NCBI GenBank assembly: GCA_049513715.1
Contig: JBEKVV010000001.1
Coordinates: 576,001 to 640,000, forward strand
Length of the DNA: 64,000 nt
Direction of reading: 5' to 3'
Source of the DNA: Candidatus Bathyarchaeia archaeon
Lineage (GTDB): Archaea; Thermoproteota; Bathyarchaeia; 40CM-2-53-6
A program made the translations under genes and the position numbers. The notes beneath the pieces were generated by a model that saw only the letters and a list, made by a program, of their open reading frames with translations, was not told where the DNA came from and made no database searches. This document shows positions 1 through 28,700 of the stretch, piece after piece (within the stretch, counting starts at the first letter, position 1; each line of letters opens with the position of its first letter).

Positions 1-1796
1 GCAATGAAATGTCTGAGATCTTTGCTTTGACTCCACGAATTTGCTCGTACGCCAATGGGCCTTCCTTGATCCCCCAGCGGTAACCGGCGATGACCATCTC
101 CTTCACTTCCTGAAGGTACTGCGCCCCTTTCGTCACCTCAACTAACATGTTGCTCCCCTCGTCGACGCTCCAGACTCCACGGGCTTCGTCTGGCGGCCAG
201 CCTTCGTCGCGCAGAATCTTGGCCATTTCATGTTTGTCTTGGTACTCGCCAATTTTTCCTTCCTTGATCATGGTTACGATCTTGTCAGGGAGCGGTTCGA
301 TGGACAAGTAGATCTTGTTGTGCTTGTTGGGCGATTTGCCTTCGACAGGCCCTGCCGCGCTCCTTACGCTTTCACGGTAGATCACGATTGGGGTTGATGT
401 AACGATTTCAAGGCCAGTTTTGGTGATGAGGGTTTGGGCGATTTCTAGGTGAAGGGTTCCCATACCTGCGATTAGGTATTCCCCTGTTTCCTCATTGATT
501 TTCGTGACAAGGTTTGGGTCTTCGATGCTGAGCTTCCTGAGTAGGTCGACGAGTTTTGGAAGGTCGCGGCTATGCTTCGGCTCGACAGCCATTGTAACGA
601 CCGGCTCGGTTACGTAGTGGACTGCCTCGAATGCAGCTATGTCTTTGATTGTGGAAAGGGTTTCACCAGCTCTTGCCGCATCAAGGCCAAGGAGGGCTGG
701 TATGTTTCCCGCGCTTATGGTCCCAATAATTTCCCTGTAGGGTCCCATGAATATGCAGACTTGCTGAACACGTTGGTCGACGCGTGCACCAAGAAGGTGG
801 AACGTTGAACCCTCCTTAATGGTTCCAGAGAACAAACGCCCGCTCGCCACAACACCAGCTTGCGGGTCCACGACTATGTTAGAGATTGCCATGACGACCG
901 GACCGTTGTCGTCGCAGTTCATCATCGCCTGGCCAACTTCGCTGTTAATGTCTCCCTTCCAAATCTTGGGAATGCGGTATCTCTGGGCCACGTGTGGCGG
1001 CGGCATGGATTCAACAGCCATGTTGAGTATGGCTTCGTGCAGTGGCGCACGGTCCTTCAGTGTCTCCACTTTGTCGTTTAAGTATGCGTCAACAACGTCT
1101 GAGAACTTCACACCCTTCTCCTTCGCGATTTCCGCGTTAAACCCCCACCGATCCTTGGCGGACCCCATTGCAACAGTGTTGCTTGCGAAGCCTACCTTCC
1201 ACTTTTCCCGGTATTCAGGTTCCGCGTAAAGTTCAATGAGACGGTTGAACTCGGTGATAATTCTACCAATGCGCTCCTGGATCTGCTCAGAGTTCAACCG
1301 TAGCTCCTTGATTAGGCGGTCAATCTTGTTGATGTATAAGACCGGTCGAACCCGCTCTTCCAATGCCTGGCGGGTTACCGTTTCGGTTTGAACCATGATT
1401 TCCTCGACGGAGTCGACCACGACAACTGCGCCATCAATGACTCTCAGGGACCGGGTTACCCTGCCCGAGAAGTCTACGTGGCCGGGGGTGTCGATGAGGT
1501 TAATGACGTATGCGATTCCGTTTCTCTCGTGCAGCAAGCTAATGTTTGCCGCTTTGATGGTCATCTGGCGCTTCTGCTCTTCCTCCATATAGTCCAAGGC
1601 TAGCGCTGTGCCAGCCATGCCTGGTGACAGAAGGCCTGCAGCGGCAAGGAGGGAATCGCTCATCGTCGTCTTTCCGTGGTCGACGTGGGCGATGATGCCC
1701 ATATATTCCGGACGCAGAACTCGACTACGCCTTTCGGATCTGGTCCTTGTTCGCTATGATCTTCTGAAGTTCCGTTGTGCTCTTGTAACGGACCAT
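1..1796 (-). CDS. fusA: Translation elongation factor 2 (aEF-2), 3' end outside the window; split gene: exon 1 1796-1733, exon 2 from 1704
   Basis: Manual translation: exon 1 MVRYKSTTELQKIIANKDQIR, exon 2 (N)MGIIAHVDHGKTT..RQMTI..DTPGHVDF..NKID..GMGTLHLE..KSPNKHN, open to the window edge. Missing from the ORF track. Confidence 0.97.
1705..1732 (-). other. Predicted 28-nt bulge-helix-bulge (BHB) intron in the EF-2 mRNA
   Basis: Minus strand: CCAGA-UCCG-AA^A-GGCGUAG-ucgaguu-CUGCGUC-CGGA-AU^A-UAUGG. 4-bp central helix, two 3-nt bulges, 7-bp intron stem; removal gives CAG AUC CGA AAU AUG GGC (QIRNMG). Confidence 0.9.
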
Positions 1797-25772: not shown

Positions 25773-28700
25773 TCAGGCTTTTTTCGCTGTTTTGTTCGTC
25801 GGCAGCTTTTTTGCGGCCGGTCTGGGGACTTCGCGTAGGCCGAATTCGTATGTTCCGCCGTCTATTTGCCAAGTCTTAATGTAGTAGGGCTCCTTAAGCT
25901 CTGTTTTCTCTGTGGCGACTACGAAGCGCTTCGCTCGTACTTCGTGGGATAAGTAGCTGCGTTTGCTCTGAAGCATGCTCGCCTTTTCGGCTGTGGGTGC
26001 GATGATGTAGCCGTGAACGTAAGAATCGACCTGCAGGTCCATCTCCTTTCGCATCTGTTGCATGCGTCGTACAGCGTCGCGGGTTAAGCCTTCAGCTAAT
26101 TCGCTTCTTGTCAGTTTAAGGTCCAAGTAGACCGTTCCGTCTGTGAACTCCGCCTTCGCGAAACGTTCGGCTTCTGGGCCGGACTCGAATTTTGCGGATT
26201 TCTGCTTAGGCACGCCTGACAGTCTGCGGGTGTTGGCTTGTTCGAGCAGAAGTGCGGAGTACGTTCGGAGGGCGTTTCTAATAGGTTTGGCATCTGAGGC
26301 CACGGTTATGCGGGGCACTGGTTGCCGCTGCTTCAAGGCTTTGCCGATGCGGGCGACCGCTATCGTCGAGAGGACGATCTGAGCTGCTTTCATTTCTTCC
26401 TCGAGCGAATCGTTCAGGAATTTCTTGTCATAGCTCGGCCAGTCTAGAAGATGGACGCTTGGAGGATGTTTCGGCTCTGCGTTCTTGAACATGTCTTGGT
26501 AGAGTGACTCTGAAAGGAATGGGGCGATTGGGCTTAGCATAGTGAGAGCGTTCTTGAGTGCGGTGTAGAGTATCGCATATGCGGCTAGCTTGTCCCGATT
26601 CTGTTTCTCAACCCATGTTCTTCGCCTGATGAATCGAACGTATGTGTGGCTGAGGTCCTCGACGAGAAAAGCTTTGAGCGCCCGCACAGCCTCATAGACC
26701 TTGTACTGCTCCATCGCCTCTGTAGCATACTTGATCGTTCGATGCATCCTGCTGAGCAACCAACGGTCTTCGGGTCGAAGTGACTTCGTCAACTTTGCGA
26801 TCGGCCACTTTGTGGGTGAGAATTTGTCGAGGCTCATGTATGTGCTAGCGAAGACGAACGTGTTCCAGAATGTGCCAAGGTCGCCGCTGTACTGCTTCAC
26901 AGCATCCCAAGAGAACCTAAGGTCTTCCCAGATTGTGTTTTGGAGTACGTAGTATCGGAATGCGTCGCGGCCGAATTTCTGAACCACTTCTTGAGATGTG
27001 ACAAAGTTCCCTAGCGACTTGTGCATCTCACGTCCCTTGTCGTCCAAGACAAAGCCGTGCATGAGAACGGTGTCAAACGGCCGGAGGTCCATCGCCACCA
27101 TCCCGGCTTTGAGTAGTGAGAAGAACCATCCAGAGATCTGATCGCGGCCCTCCACTATGAAATCTGCAGGCCACCACAGCTTCGTCACCTCGGGGTACTT
27201 GGGGTGGCTTAGACATGCGTAAGAGGCTGCGCCAGAGTCGTACCACCCCACCATGACGTCCGGTATCCGAGCCATTTCACCGCCACATTTGCACCGAATC
27301 CTAACTTTATCCACCCAAGGTCTGTGCAGGTTTGGAAGGTCCACCTTCGCCAGGGACCTCTCAAGAAGTTCCTGCTTCGAGCCAATGACTTCATGCTGCC
27401 CGCAGGAGCCGCAAACCCAGACGGGCAGGGGTGTCCCCCAGAACCTTTGCCTCGAGACTACCCAGTCTTTCAGGTTTTGAAGCCAGTTCTTGAATTGGCT
27501 AGCGCCGGCCCAGATTGGTATCCACTGTGTGGCATCAACGTCTTTGATGAACTGGTCTTTGAGATGTGCGACTCGCACAAGCCACTGTTCAGTAGCACGA
27601 ATGATTAGGGGCGTTTTGCAACGCCAACAGACGGGGCTCCTGTGCTCTATCTCGGTCTCAAAGAGGAGCATCCCGGCCGATTTCAAATCCTCAATAACTT
27701 CGGGGTTGGCGTCACGCACGAACTTCCCTGCATACTTGCCAGTATCAGAAACCAACCGTCCCTGGTCGTCCACGAGCATGAGCACTGGAAGATTGCTACG
27801 TATACCCACCTCGTAGTCTTCCTCGCCGTGGCCAGGCGCCGAGTGCACGCAACCAGTCCCATCTTCCATGCTCACGTATTCCTTACTGAGAACAACGCGG
27901 TGGCCGCCTTTGAGTTTCGCCTGCGCAGGCACTAGGCCTTCCAGTGGCGAGCGGTAAGTGAGCCCTTCGAGCTTGGTTCCTGGAAAGCTTTCTAGAAGCT
28001 CGAAGTGTGTCCCCGTCTCCTTCTGGACGCTCTCCATTCTTGCCTTTGCGATAATGTACACTTCGTCATCTGACCTTACCCTAGCGTAGTCGAAATCCGG
28101 GTTAACCATAACTGCTACGTTCGAGGGTAATGTCCATGGGGTCGTGGTCCAGATGAGAACGAATTCATTCTGTTTCCCCTCAACTGGAAATTTCACATAG
28201 ATGGATGGGTCGCGGAGCATCTTGTACTCCAAAACAACCTCGTAATCTGAGAGCACTGTTTCGCACCTTGGGCACCAGTGAACCACGCGTTGTCCATGCT
28301 CGAACAGTCCCTTGGTCCAAGCTTGCTTCAGGCTCCACCAGTCACTTTCGATGTAATCATCATGATGCGTCATGTAGGGCTTAGCCCAGTCCATCCACAC
28401 CCCAAGGTCTTGGAAGACCTGAGTCATTGATTCGGAATTCATTTCAGCGAAACGCTTGCACTCAGAAACAAACTTCTCCAGGCCGAAGCCCTCAATGTCC
28501 TTTTTCGTTTTGAAGTCGAACTTTTGTTCTACTGCCAGTTCGATTGGGAGCCCGTGGCAGTCGTAGCCTGGTTGATCTCTAACGTGGTAGCCGCGTGATC
28601 GTTTGTATCGGATTATCGTGTCCTTGAGAACCTTGTTCCAACATGTCCCTATGTGAGGAGTATCAGAGCTTGGGAACGGTGGCCCGTCGAGGAAATAAAA

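What the first reader, a model, noticed from the sequence alone, without database searches (positions are those of the whole stretch)
1695..1796. tRNA-type (bulge-helix-bulge) intron interrupting the EF-2 coding sequence
Seen: exon 1 encodes a normal EF-2 N-terminus (MVRYKSTTELQKIIANKDQIR), then hits a TAG inside a 28-nt insert (1732-1705) that also shifts the frame. The insert and flanks form a canonical BHB: central helix UCCG/CGGA, 3-nt bulges AAA and AUA, 7-bp intron stem GGCGUAG/CUGCGUC and an imperfect exon-exon helix CCAGA/UAUGG. Cutting after the second base of each bulge gives QIR-N-MGIIAHVDHGKT, the conserved sequence before the G1 P-loop. Established: archaeal EndA cleaves BHBs and RtcB ligates; the well-known mRNA case is crenarchaeal cbf5. 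Inference: an essential translation GTPase depends on tRNA-splicing machinery, which could be a regulatory checkpoint and may signal more hidden mRNA introns in this lineage. Gene callers would start at ATG 1702 and miss it.
Basis: partly seen in the sequence, partly recalled or inferred. Interest (0 to 1): 0.95.

Follow-up and report, generated by a model that had tools for sequence, protein, structure and literature searches.

The report
tRNA-type intron inside archaeal EF-2 gene
The gene for the essential translation factor EF-2 of this uncultured archaeon is split after codon 21 by a 28-base intron of the kind normally found in tRNAs, a split kept in dozens of related genomes and missed by gene callers.

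Summary
On the minus strand a 28-nt insert (1732-1705) separates a 21-codon exon 1 (from ATG 1796) from the rest of aEF-2. [quoted passage not shown]

Comparative support is strong:
- The same insert sits at the same site in 57 of 74 readable EF-2 genes of the order, and in 3 genomes of other orders of the class.
- Insert lengths run from 25 to 54 nt and the stem covaries: 90.5% of cells pair, against 20-52% in slid registers.
- All 60 inserts carry an in-frame stop.
- Cutting after the second base of each bulge gives ..IRN[I/M]GIIAH.. in 58 of 60, the reading found in intronless relatives.

The genome encodes two EndA-family proteins and RtcB. Its cbf5 gene carries a 19-nt BHB intron at the position of the experimentally spliced crenarchaeal cbf5 intron.

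No RNA data could be obtained, so splicing itself is inferred. In my searches of the held library I found no report of an EF-2 BHB intron. A 2020 paper names cbf5 as the only other BHB intron reported in an archaeal mRNA. This scan had not noted the EF-2 intron before, but its notes list BHB-type inserts in other protein genes of other archaea.

Verdict: a real new member of a known kind. The regulatory-checkpoint idea is untested.

The parts
1733..1796 (-). Exon 1 of aEF-2: ATG 1796-1794, 21 codons (MVRYKSTTELQKIIANKDQIR) plus the first base (A1733) of the split Asn codon
   Evidence: It is homologous to the N-terminus of intronless EF-2 genes. Codon-position entropy is 0.33/0.27/1.11 bits over 45 distinct exon-1 sequences.
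1705..1732 (-). 28-nt BHB intron, cut after the 2nd base of each bulge; holds the in-frame stop TAG 1727-1725
1735..1738 (-). Central 4-bp helix, 5' strand UCCG (exon 1; codons Ile-Arg)
   Evidence: Pairs with 1707-1710 in 59 of 59 distinct sequences. Covaries as UCCG/CGGA, UCCG/CGGG, UUCG/CGAA and UGCG/CGCG.
1732..1734 (-). 5' bulge AAA; predicted cleavage between 1733 and 1732
   Evidence: Bulge position 2 is A in 58 of 60 (Asn codon position 1) and position 3 varies A/T, i.e. is intronic.
1711..1731 (-). Intron hairpin h': GGCGUAG (1731-1725), loop UCGAGUU (1724-1718), CUGCGUC (1717-1711)
   Evidence: The five stem pairs counted all show changes on both sides, with 94.9% of cells paired.
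1707..1710 (-). Central helix, 3' strand CGGA (intronic)
1704..1706 (-). 3' bulge AUA; predicted cleavage between 1705 and 1704
   Evidence: Positions 1-2 vary (AU, AG, AA, AC, UA, CA). Position 3 is A in 59 of 60 (Asn codon position 2).
1699..1703 (-). 3' strand of the weak exon-exon helix (UAUGG), pairing with CCAGA 1743-1739
   Evidence: Pairs 1 and 3 hold in 56 and 59 of 59 sequences, pair 2 never, pairs 4-5 partly. The helix is relaxed.
1..1704 (-). Exon 2 of aEF-2 (begins A1704; the ATG at 1702-1700 is codon 23 of the spliced reading). It runs off the window; the stop lies at G000:C1:575579
   Evidence: GTP_EFTU from profile position 6, then EFG domains II-V.

Best explanation
This is a bulge-helix-bulge (tRNA-type) intron inside the coding sequence of the single aEF-2 gene.

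Proposed mechanism:
- The pre-mRNA folds so that UCCG of exon 1 pairs with CGGA at the 3' end of the intron. The 5' bulge lies between this helix and the intron hairpin; the 3' bulge lies between it and a weak exon-exon helix.
- The host splicing endonuclease cuts after the second base of each bulge. Two EndA-family genes suggest the (alpha-beta)2 type, which tolerates relaxed motifs.
- RtcB joins the exons, creating the Asn codon A|AU and the reading ..DQIR-N-MGIIAHVDHGKT...
- Unspliced mRNA can give only a 23-aa peptide, because a stop codon lies three codons after the 5' splice site.

Shown here: the structure, its covariation, its conservation, the homolog-consistent junction, the enzymes' genes, and a second mRNA intron (cbf5) in the same genome.

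Inferred: that cleavage and ligation actually occur, which enzyme does it, and when.

The intron is old. It is found in 8 of the order's 10 sampled families and in three genomes from two families of other orders. It is missing from 17 readable genomes of the order.
For: (1) Anatomy at the stated coordinates.
(2) In the order, 105 genomes were searched and 79 had an EF-2 match. Of these, 57 carry the insert at this site, 17 do not and 5 are unreadable. Three more carriers lie in other orders of the class.
(3) Over the 60 introns, lengths are 25-54 nt and 17 of 60 are multiples of three, yet 60 of 60 hold an in-frame stop.
(4) The canonical cut gives RN[I/M]G in 58 of 60. Cutting at bulge base 0 or 1 gives mixed residues (Y/D/N/H), and base 3 breaks four sequences.
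(5) RNAalifold finds the central helix, the 3-nt bulge and the stem on its own. Pair counts: 90.5% paired against 20-52% when slid; covariation score 0.282 against at most 0.080; 62 double-change cells against at most 11; 0 of 500 shuffles reach the observed value.
(6) Intronless EF-2 genes read ..IRN[I/M/L/F]G.. without a break: L019, genera g2/g3/g14, and the 12 of 16 outgroup loci examined that were readable.
(7) The codon after Asn is ATG in only 19 of 60 (ATT 22, ATC 12, ATA 5, GTC 2), so an internal start cannot be the general solution.
(8) Exon 1 evolves as coding sequence.
(9) The genome has two EndA-family genes and one RtcB gene. The best solved-structure matches of the first are 3p1z_B, 3ajv_B, 2cv8 and 2zyz_B, listed only as 'tRNA-splicing endonuclease'; that these are crenarchaeal alpha subunits is recalled.
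(10) cbf5 in the same genome carries a 19-nt BHB intron that splits the catalytic Asp codon G|AT. This is the position assigned to the crenarchaeal cbf5 intron in PMC2738675. It is present in 27 of the 27 related loci, out of 30 fetched, where the motif was found, and its central helix covaries.
(11) The insert is present on 56 metagenome contigs, so it is not an assembly error.
Against: - There is no RNA-level observation of any kind.
- Folded alone, the window's own sequence prefers another hairpin by up to 5.4 kcal/mol when the BHB is enforced.
- The exon-exon helix is weak: pair 2 never forms and pair 4 forms in 17 of 59. The motif is therefore relaxed rather than canonical on the 3' side.
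- Related sequences are not independent, so the covariation statistics overstate the number of events.
- The genome is a MAG with 8.8% estimated contamination.
Confidence: 0.88

Rival explanations
1. No splicing occurs. The upstream ORF is a 23-aa leader peptide, or not translated at all. EF-2 is made from the internal ATG 1702 as a protein lacking its first 22 residues, and the hairpin acts as a translational operator.
For: An ATG follows the insert in this genome, and public gene calls use it. Single-sequence folding gives a different hairpin.
Against: In 41 of 60 intron-bearing genes the corresponding codon is ATT, ATC, ATA or GTC. There the next ATG lies after the P-loop (..GKTTM..). Exon 1 is homologous to the N-terminus of uninterrupted EF-2 genes and evolves as coding sequence. 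The Pfam GTP_EFTU match of the truncated ORF starts only at profile position 6. The intronic strand CGG[A/G] stays complementary to the exonic UCCG and covaries with it.
Confidence: 0.05
2. The break is overcome by recoding during translation: a frameshift or a ribosomal hop over the insert, as in phage T4 gene 60.
For: There is a stop codon just after the break and a hairpin over the gap, which superficially resembles the gene 60 arrangement (the gene 60 features are recalled, not looked up).
Against: Insert lengths run from 25 to 54 nt in all three phases, so no single frameshift fits. I saw no matched take-off and landing codons that restore the frame: landing on the CGG of CCGGAAU reads N-I-W..., out of frame (by inspection). 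The conserved features are those of an EndA substrate.
Confidence: 0.02
3. The gene is a pseudogene, or the insert is an assembly or sequencing artefact.
For: The genome is a MAG with 8.8% estimated contamination.
Against: In this genome only one match to the EF-2 query has an EF-2-level score; the second match has E = 5e-7. The insert is present in 60 genomes and on 56 metagenome contigs. Exon 2 is an intact 707-codon frame with all EF-2 domains.
Confidence: 0.01

Closest known systems
cbf5 pre-mRNA BHB intron of Crenarchaeota (Desulfurococcales, Sulfolobales). Watanabe 2002 and Yoshinari 2006 seen only as citations; Yokobori 2009, PMC2738675, passages read.
   Same: A short BHB intron inside a protein-coding sequence. 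It splits a codon, is often relaxed, sits in a lineage with a two-subunit EndA, and shows a patchy gain/loss pattern among relatives. This genome carries a cbf5 intron at the same codon position.
   Different: The host gene differs (aEF-2, a translational GTPase), as do the lineage and the position: 64 nt into the coding sequence, inside the start of the GTP_EFTU domain. Splicing of the EF-2 intron has not been shown experimentally.
BHB introns of archaeal pre-tRNAs and pre-rRNAs
   Same: The architecture is the same: two 3-nt bulges, a 4-bp helix and cuts after bulge base 2. As in a tRNA intron at 37/38, the central helix is formed by exon 1 and the 3' end of the intron. The presumed enzymes are the same (EndA, RtcB).
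   Different: The substrate is an mRNA. The outer helix is a weak exon-exon pairing rather than an anticodon stem. The junction must preserve a reading frame.
BHB intron in the 5' UTR of HVO_1309, Haloferax volcanii (PMC7714728, passages read)
   Same: An mRNA substrate of the splicing endonuclease, near the 5' end of the transcript.
   Different: That intron lies in the untranslated leader, and its circular form and in vitro cleavage were demonstrated. Here the intron interrupts the coding sequence and nothing has been demonstrated at the RNA level.
HAC1/XBP1 unconventional mRNA splicing (IRE1 cut; RtcB named as ligase in reference titles seen; the remaining details are recalled)
   Same: It works alike in outline: a protein endonuclease cuts stem-loop sites in a mature mRNA, ligation changes the reading frame, and without splicing the protein is not made.
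   Different: The endonuclease and the recognition motif are unrelated. That system is a proven stress switch; no regulation is shown here.

Membership tests
Archaeal BHB (tRNA-type) intron | Two 3-nt bulges on opposite strands separated by a 4-bp helix | tested here: met
   UCCG/CGGA with bulges AAA and AUA in the window. The central helix pairs in 59 of 59 distinct sequences with compensatory variants, and the bulges are 3 nt in all 60.
Archaeal BHB (tRNA-type) intron | Flanking helices on both sides (h' in the intron, h between the exons) | tested here: inconclusive
   h' is strong and covaries (94.9% paired). h is weak: A-U, mismatch, A-U, then 17 and 46 of 59 paired. This corresponds to a relaxed form. 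Passages of PMC5829648 say only (alpha-beta)2 and epsilon2 enzymes cut relaxed motifs.
Archaeal BHB (tRNA-type) intron | Cleavage at the symmetric bulge positions yields a functional joined product | tested here: met
   The cut after bulge base 2 gives RN[I/M]G in 58 of 60, the reading of intronless homologs. Other registers do not. The rule itself (cut after base 2) is recalled, not looked up.
Archaeal BHB (tRNA-type) intron | Host encodes the splicing endonuclease and the RtcB ligase | tested here: met
   Two PF01974 genes (84 and 55 bits) and one PF01139 gene (578 bits). Solved-structure matches of the first EndA gene are listed as 'tRNA-splicing endonuclease'.
Archaeal BHB (tRNA-type) intron | Exact empty site in relatives | tested here: met
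   17 genomes of the order and the 12 readable of 16 outgroup loci read through the site without the insert.
Archaeal BHB (tRNA-type) intron | Intron removed from RNA in vivo or in vitro (spliced transcript, circular intron, cleavage assay) | not testable with these tools
   No RNA run was listed. The metagenome contigs showed only the unspliced form.
cbf5 intron family (orthologous intron) | Located in cbf5, between the 1st and 2nd letter of the catalytic Asp codon | tested here: not met
   The finding lies in aEF-2. A separate intron of this genome (G000:C1:415527-415545) does meet this feature.
Group I / group II self-splicing intron | Ribozyme core recognisable by covariance models; hundreds of bases long | tested here: not met
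   The insert is 28 nt, and the window has no Rfam match at gathering score.
Intein | In-frame protein insert with splicing domains | tested here: not met
   The insert holds a stop codon and shifts the frame. A true intein does occur 10 codons downstream in some relatives.
Programmed translational bypass (gene 60 type) | Matched take-off and landing codons flanking the gap | tested here: not met
   By inspection, no matched pair restores the EF-2 frame. Gap lengths vary from 25 to 54 nt.

The most novel reading that the evidence does not exclude
EF-2 synthesis in this lineage is gated by the tRNA-splicing machinery. These genomes have tRNA genes crowded with introns, so the amount of translatable EF-2 mRNA would track the free capacity of EndA and RtcB, matching elongation capacity to the supply of mature tRNA. 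One observation fits selection on the unspliced state rather than on structure alone. A UAG three codons after the 5' splice site is kept in 52 of 60 introns, even where its stem partners no longer pair (T-T in 20 and A-C in 24 of 59). That stop would abort translation of unspliced mRNA cleanly. A wider form of this reading: the first 90 nt of EF-2 are a hotspot for insertions. Three BHB intron positions lie within 20 nt, and an intein sits in the P-loop.
Probability: 0.2. Interest if true: 0.85.

Novelty: new member of a known kind. Interest (0 to 1): 0.66.

Why it matters
- A 2020 paper I read in passages (PMC7714728) names the cbf5 mRNA of Crenarchaeota as the only other BHB intron reported in an archaeal mRNA, beside the 5'-UTR intron it describes. 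A 2025 structural paper cites only the three cbf5 papers among the references I saw.
- A second host gene with 60 natural variants would show that the tRNA-splicing pathway has been recruited for mRNAs more than once. This gene is essential and highly expressed.
- The variants form a ready-made substrate series for EndA specificity: relaxed outer helix, four central-helix variants, 25-54 nt hairpins.
- Public protein collections hold the truncated 707-aa EF-2. If EF-2 serves as a phylogenomic marker (recalled, not checked), such truncated calls could enter marker sets, and similar short introns could hide elsewhere.
- Three intron positions and an intein within about 30 codons make this gene end a useful case for studying how such elements are gained and lost.

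Tried and rejected
- RNA evidence: no RNA holder was listed for window:1300-2300, so read laying could not be used.
- Metagenome scan with an 18-nt exon-1 stretch: 74 stretches, of which 56 carry the insert, 13 are unrelated, 5 are too short and none is spliced-like. This collection is presumably DNA, so the result says nothing about splicing.
- Generic genome-wide scans for further mRNA introns (BHB motif plus ORF fusion) gave no excess over shifted cut registers:
  - strict motif, 267 candidates against 251-274;
  - compact hairpins, 30 against 25-28;
  - relaxed stem, 301 against 283-324.
  The EF-2 intron was recovered as a positive control. The strict scan's stem requirement (at least 5 pairs) excludes the 4-pair cbf5 stem; I did not check the relaxed scan's list for it. 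These scans cannot find a handful of true cases.
- One candidate inside the window (28206-28238, minus strand) lies within an uninterrupted 1018-aa ORF, whose cluster holds a member named isoleucyl-tRNA synthetase. It is a chance motif.
- A search for a second copy of the intron in the genome found nothing beyond 14-nt chance matches. The fuzzy-regex version of this search got no answer from the script machine.
- The other translational GTPases of the genome are uninterrupted, as is rtcB.
One EF-2 cluster member is labelled as an Acidobacteriota-type MAG, probably a binning error. 'Bathyarchaeia' therefore rests on this scan's earlier, unchecked notes.
- Literature: eight full-text searches found no paper describing a BHB intron in EF-2. 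Hallam 2006 (PMC1643844) is not held and might mention introns in protein genes of Cenarchaeum. No supplements were opened.
Full report
**1. What is in the window**

The window is G000:C1:576001-640000 of an 11-contig, 2.79-Mb assembly. On the minus strand an ATG at 1796 opens 21 sense codons (MVRYKSTTELQKIIANKDQIR). These are followed by AAG GCG TAG (the 23-aa ORF 1725..1796). Twenty-two bases further on, in another frame, the long EF-2 frame starts at ATG 1702 with MGIIAHVDHGKTT. That frame is 707 codons long and has all EF-2 domains, but its Pfam GTP_EFTU match begins only at profile position 6.

- central helix UCCG 1738-1735 with CGGA 1710-1707;
- bulges AAA 1734-1732 and AUA 1706-1704;
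- stem GGCGUAG 1731-1725 with CUGCGUC 1717-1711 around a 7-nt loop;
- imperfect outer helix CCAGA 1743-1739 with UAUGG 1703-1699.

Cutting after the second base of each bulge removes 1732-1705 (28 nt). It joins ..AUC CGA A to AU AUG GGC.., which reads I-R-N-M-G.

The window has no tRNA gene and no Rfam match at gathering score.

**2. Is it more than chance?**

Folded alone, the window's sequence does not choose the BHB. The 76-nt fold has MFE -21.1 kcal/mol with z = -1.6. On the 67-nt segment the BHB conformation scores -13.4 against an MFE of -21.1 kcal/mol. The case therefore rests on comparison.

*Within the order.* I searched 105 genomes of the same order with the uninterrupted N-terminus of a relative (L019); 79 had an EF-2 match. 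I read the 5' region of each.
- 57 genomes carry an insert at exactly this site.
- 17 do not.
- 5 could not be read because of contig ends or an intein that pushed the start out of the fetched stretch.

The carriers cover 8 of the 10 sampled families. In the window's own family, genera g1 and g15 have the insert and g2, g3 and g14 lack it. Family f6 lacks it in its one readable genome.

*Across the class.* In a class-wide sample of 201 genomes, 178 had a match. Only the best 150 match rows were listed; 55 more were not. Among the listed rows from outside the order, all but four were contiguous. All four exceptions turned out to have inserts. Three are at this site (two genomes of family f29 and one of f13). 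One is a few bases downstream.

*Outgroups.* Of 16 named outgroup loci examined (labelled, among others, Nitrosotenuis, Nitrososphaera, Acidilobus, Desulfurococcales, a Bathyarchaeota MAG, DPANN and methanogens), 12 were readable and all 12 read ..xIRN[I/F][G/A].. without a break.

**3. Anatomy of the 60 introns**

- Lengths run from 25 to 54 nt, and 17 of 60 are multiples of three.
- All 60 contain an in-frame stop (TAG 52, TAA 5, TGA 3).
- The central helix pairs in 59 of 59 distinct sequences. It occurs as UCCG/CGGA (52 of the 60 introns), UCCG/CGGG (5), UGCG/CGCG (2) and UUCG/CGAA (1). The last two are compensatory double changes.
- 5' bulge: position 1 is the synonymous third base of the Arg codon (A or U). 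Position 2 is A in 58 of 60 and G in two. Position 3 varies A/U.
- 3' bulge: the first two positions vary (AU, AG, AA, AC, UA, CA). The third is A in 59 of 60.

This is the pattern expected if the cut falls after the second base of each bulge and the Asn codon is assembled as A|AY. With that cut the product is RN[I/M]G in 58 of 60, and RAVG or RDVG in the two f29 genomes. A cut at base 0 or 1 gives a mix of Y, D, N and H. A cut at base 3 gives RIMG in four sequences.

RNAalifold, run on a plain MAFFT alignment of 59 distinct segments, predicts the central helix, a 3-nt 5' bulge and the stem stacked on the 3' side. Six of its 9 pairs show double changes.

Counting the full BHB on that alignment gives:

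| Measure | Observed | Controls |
|---|---|---|
| Cells paired | 90.5% | 20-52%, partners slid by 1-3 columns |
| Covariation score | 0.282 | 0.021-0.080, slid |
| Cells with changes on both sides | 62 | 0-11, slid |
| Shuffles reaching the observed pairing, double-change cell count or covariation score | 0 of 500 | (2 of 500 reach the two count-of-pairs/types measures) |

The sequences are related, so these figures overstate independent events. Even so, the stem differs outright between families, for example GGCGUAG/CUGCGUC, GGCGUAAAA/UUUUACGCC, GGCCGAGCG/CGCUCGGCC and GAAAUA/UAUUUC.

In 52 of 60 segments the MFE itself contains the central helix. The outer exon-exon helix is weak everywhere: A-U, a constant mismatch, A-U, then partial pairing. 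The motif is therefore relaxed on its 3' side.

**4. Exon 1 is coding and belongs to EF-2**

- It aligns with the N-terminus of uninterrupted EF-2 genes.
- Over 45 distinct exon-1 sequences the entropy per codon position is 0.33, 0.27 and 1.11 bits.
- The codon after the junction is ATG in only 19 of 60 genes. In the other 41 it is ATT, ATC, ATA or GTC. The 'start at the ATG' solution used by gene callers therefore cannot work in most carriers, where the next ATG lies behind the P-loop.
- In this genome the exact 707-aa truncated protein is in public collections. It was seen on 47 contigs, in a 72-member cluster whose full-length members (706-707 aa) are named 'elongation factor 2'.
- The insert is present on 56 of the 74 metagenome stretches that matched an 18-nt exon-1 word. 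Thirteen were unrelated and five too short. It is not an assembly artefact.

**5. The machinery, and a second mRNA intron**

The genome has two EndA-family genes (PF01974 at 84 and 55 bits, each also with the N-terminal domain) and one RtcB gene (578 bits). The 186-aa EndA protein is closest to chains 3p1z_B, 3ajv_B, 2cv8 and 2zyz_B. I recall these as catalytic subunits of crenarchaeal two-subunit enzymes; the table itself says only 'tRNA-splicing endonuclease'. The 192-aa protein is a weaker match and is likely the structural subunit. Passages of PMC5829648 say that only (alpha-beta)2 and epsilon2 enzymes cut relaxed motifs.

ARAGORN called 33 tRNA genes, 28 of them with an intron. This is a rough figure, since the program does not model multiple introns.

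Checking cbf5, I found that it too is split. Exon 1 ends ..GGA ACC CUA G, and exon 2 starts AU CCG AAA GUC... Between them lies a 19-nt insert, A-GACA-GUAA-UGUC-GGGG-UA, with central helix CCCU/GGGG and bulges AGA and UAA (G000:C1:415527-415545). Pfam finds DKCLD on one side of the split, and TruB_N positions 72-149 plus TruB_C_2 and PUA on the other. The cut falls between the first and second letter of the catalytic Asp codon. PMC2738675 places the crenarchaeal cbf5 intron at exactly this position (section 'Sequence and phylogenetic analysis'). The same intron is present in all 27 related loci, out of 30 fetched, where the GHGGT motif was found. Its central helix covaries as CCCU/GGGG, CCUU/GAGG and CUCU/GGAG. 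The lineage thus carries the one archaeal mRNA intron whose splicing has been shown elsewhere, which makes splicing of the EF-2 intron by the same route the economical reading.

**6. Rival readings**

- *Internal start without splicing.* This fails on the start-codon count, on the homology and coding signature of exon 1, and on the covariation of an intronic strand with an exonic one.
- *Frameshifting or hopping.* This fails on the spread of lengths over all three phases. No take-off and landing pair restores the frame.
- *Pseudogene or artefact.* This fails on conservation, on the intact 707-codon exon 2, and on EF-2 being the only match with an EF-2-level score in the genome.
- The other translational GTPases are uninterrupted.

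**7. What remains inferred**

I could obtain no RNA evidence. The timing relative to translation, the enzyme's identity and any regulation are all inferences.

The 'checkpoint' idea has one observation in its favour. The UAG in the 5' strand of the stem is kept in 52 of 60 introns, even where its partners do not pair (T-T in 20 and A-C in 24 of 59). This looks like selection on the stop itself. Against an indispensable role, 17 readable relatives lack the site-A intron; 16 of them have no BHB intron in this region and one has a different intron 15 nt downstream.

**8. Further features of the same gene end**

- Genome G026 lacks the site-A intron but has a canonical 42-nt BHB intron 15 nt downstream, between the His and Val codons of AH|VDHGKT.
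- Genome G105, from another order, has a 40-nt one cut one base later (G|UC), with three of its four central pairs formed. Both restore IIAHVDHGKTTM.
- Many genomes of genus g2, and also G001 (genus g1) and G084 (family f10), have an intein after GK of the P-loop, with LAGLIDADG_3 and Intein_splicing matches. G001 and G084 carry both the intron and the intein.

**9. Novelty**

Eight full-text searches found no report of a BHB intron in EF-2. PMC7714728 (2020; passages) states that only one additional BHB intron, in cbf5 mRNA, had been reported besides its own 5'-UTR case. PMC12397907 (2025; reference list seen) cites only the cbf5 papers. Hallam 2006 was not held.

This scan had not noted the EF-2 intron before. 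Its unchecked notes list BHB-type inserts in other protein genes of other archaea, for example rtcB in DPANN.

The taxon label 'Bathyarchaeia' comes from such notes, and I could not verify it.

I class the finding as a new member of a known kind, of clear interest to people working on archaeal RNA processing and on annotation of uncultured archaea.

Noticed in passing
L165:1369-1387 (= G000:C1:415527-415545, + strand; outside the window): The cbf5 gene of the same genome is split by a 19-nt BHB intron (CCCU AG|A GACA-GUAA-UGUC GGGG UA|A) inside the catalytic Asp codon G|AU. This is the position reported for the crenarchaeal cbf5 intron. It is present in all 27 related loci, out of 30 fetched, where the motif was found, with a covarying central helix. 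I found no report of it for this lineage.
   Followed up: yes
L029:250-291 (G026, same order, family f3): This EF-2 gene lacks the site-A intron but has a canonical 42-nt BHB intron 15 nt downstream, between the His and Val codons of IIAH|VDHGKT (GCCC AU|A ... GGGC AG|G). Seen in a single genome.
   Followed up: partly
L164 (G105, another order of the class), minus strand, directly after the ..IIAH codons: A 40-nt insert with a 14-bp hairpin. It fits a BHB with 3 of 4 central pairs (CCCA/GGGG), cut in the Val codon G|UC, one base from the G026 site. This makes three intron positions within 20 nt of the EF-2 gene.
   Followed up: partly
L018 / L160 (G001), L152 (G084), L153-L159 (genus g2): An intein of about 330-600 residues follows GK of the EF-2 P-loop (GK|C...HN|T). 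LAGLIDADG_3 and Intein_splicing matches were found in G001. G001 and G084 carry both the BHB intron and the intein, about 10 codons apart.
   Followed up: partly
window 1725-1727 (-) and the same column in relatives: The in-frame UAG in the 5' strand of the intron stem is kept in 52 of 60 introns, although its pairing partners often do not pair (T-T 20, A-C 24 of 59). The conservation looks sequence-specific rather than structural, and is unexplained.
   Followed up: partly
L157 (G043, genus g2), minus strand, upstream of ..KQIRNIGIIAH: The EF-2 N-terminus is replaced by a shorter, unrelated start (TTG..GFAESRRYK) behind an A/T-rich box. A remnant 'PRF' of the usual start lies about 80 nt upstream in another frame. 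This looks like a local rearrangement of the gene's 5' end.
   Followed up: no
G000 whole genome: ARAGORN finds only 33 tRNA genes, 28 of them with an intron call and some with implausible lengths of 1.7-2.7 kb. This agrees with this scan's earlier notes of multi-intron tRNAs and a homing-endonuclease cassette in this genome.
   Followed up: no
cluster of the EF-2 protein: One near-identical EF-2 (706 aa) is deposited under a bacterial MAG label ('Candidatus Acidoferrales bacterium'). This is probably an archaeal contig binned into a bacterial genome.
   Followed up: no
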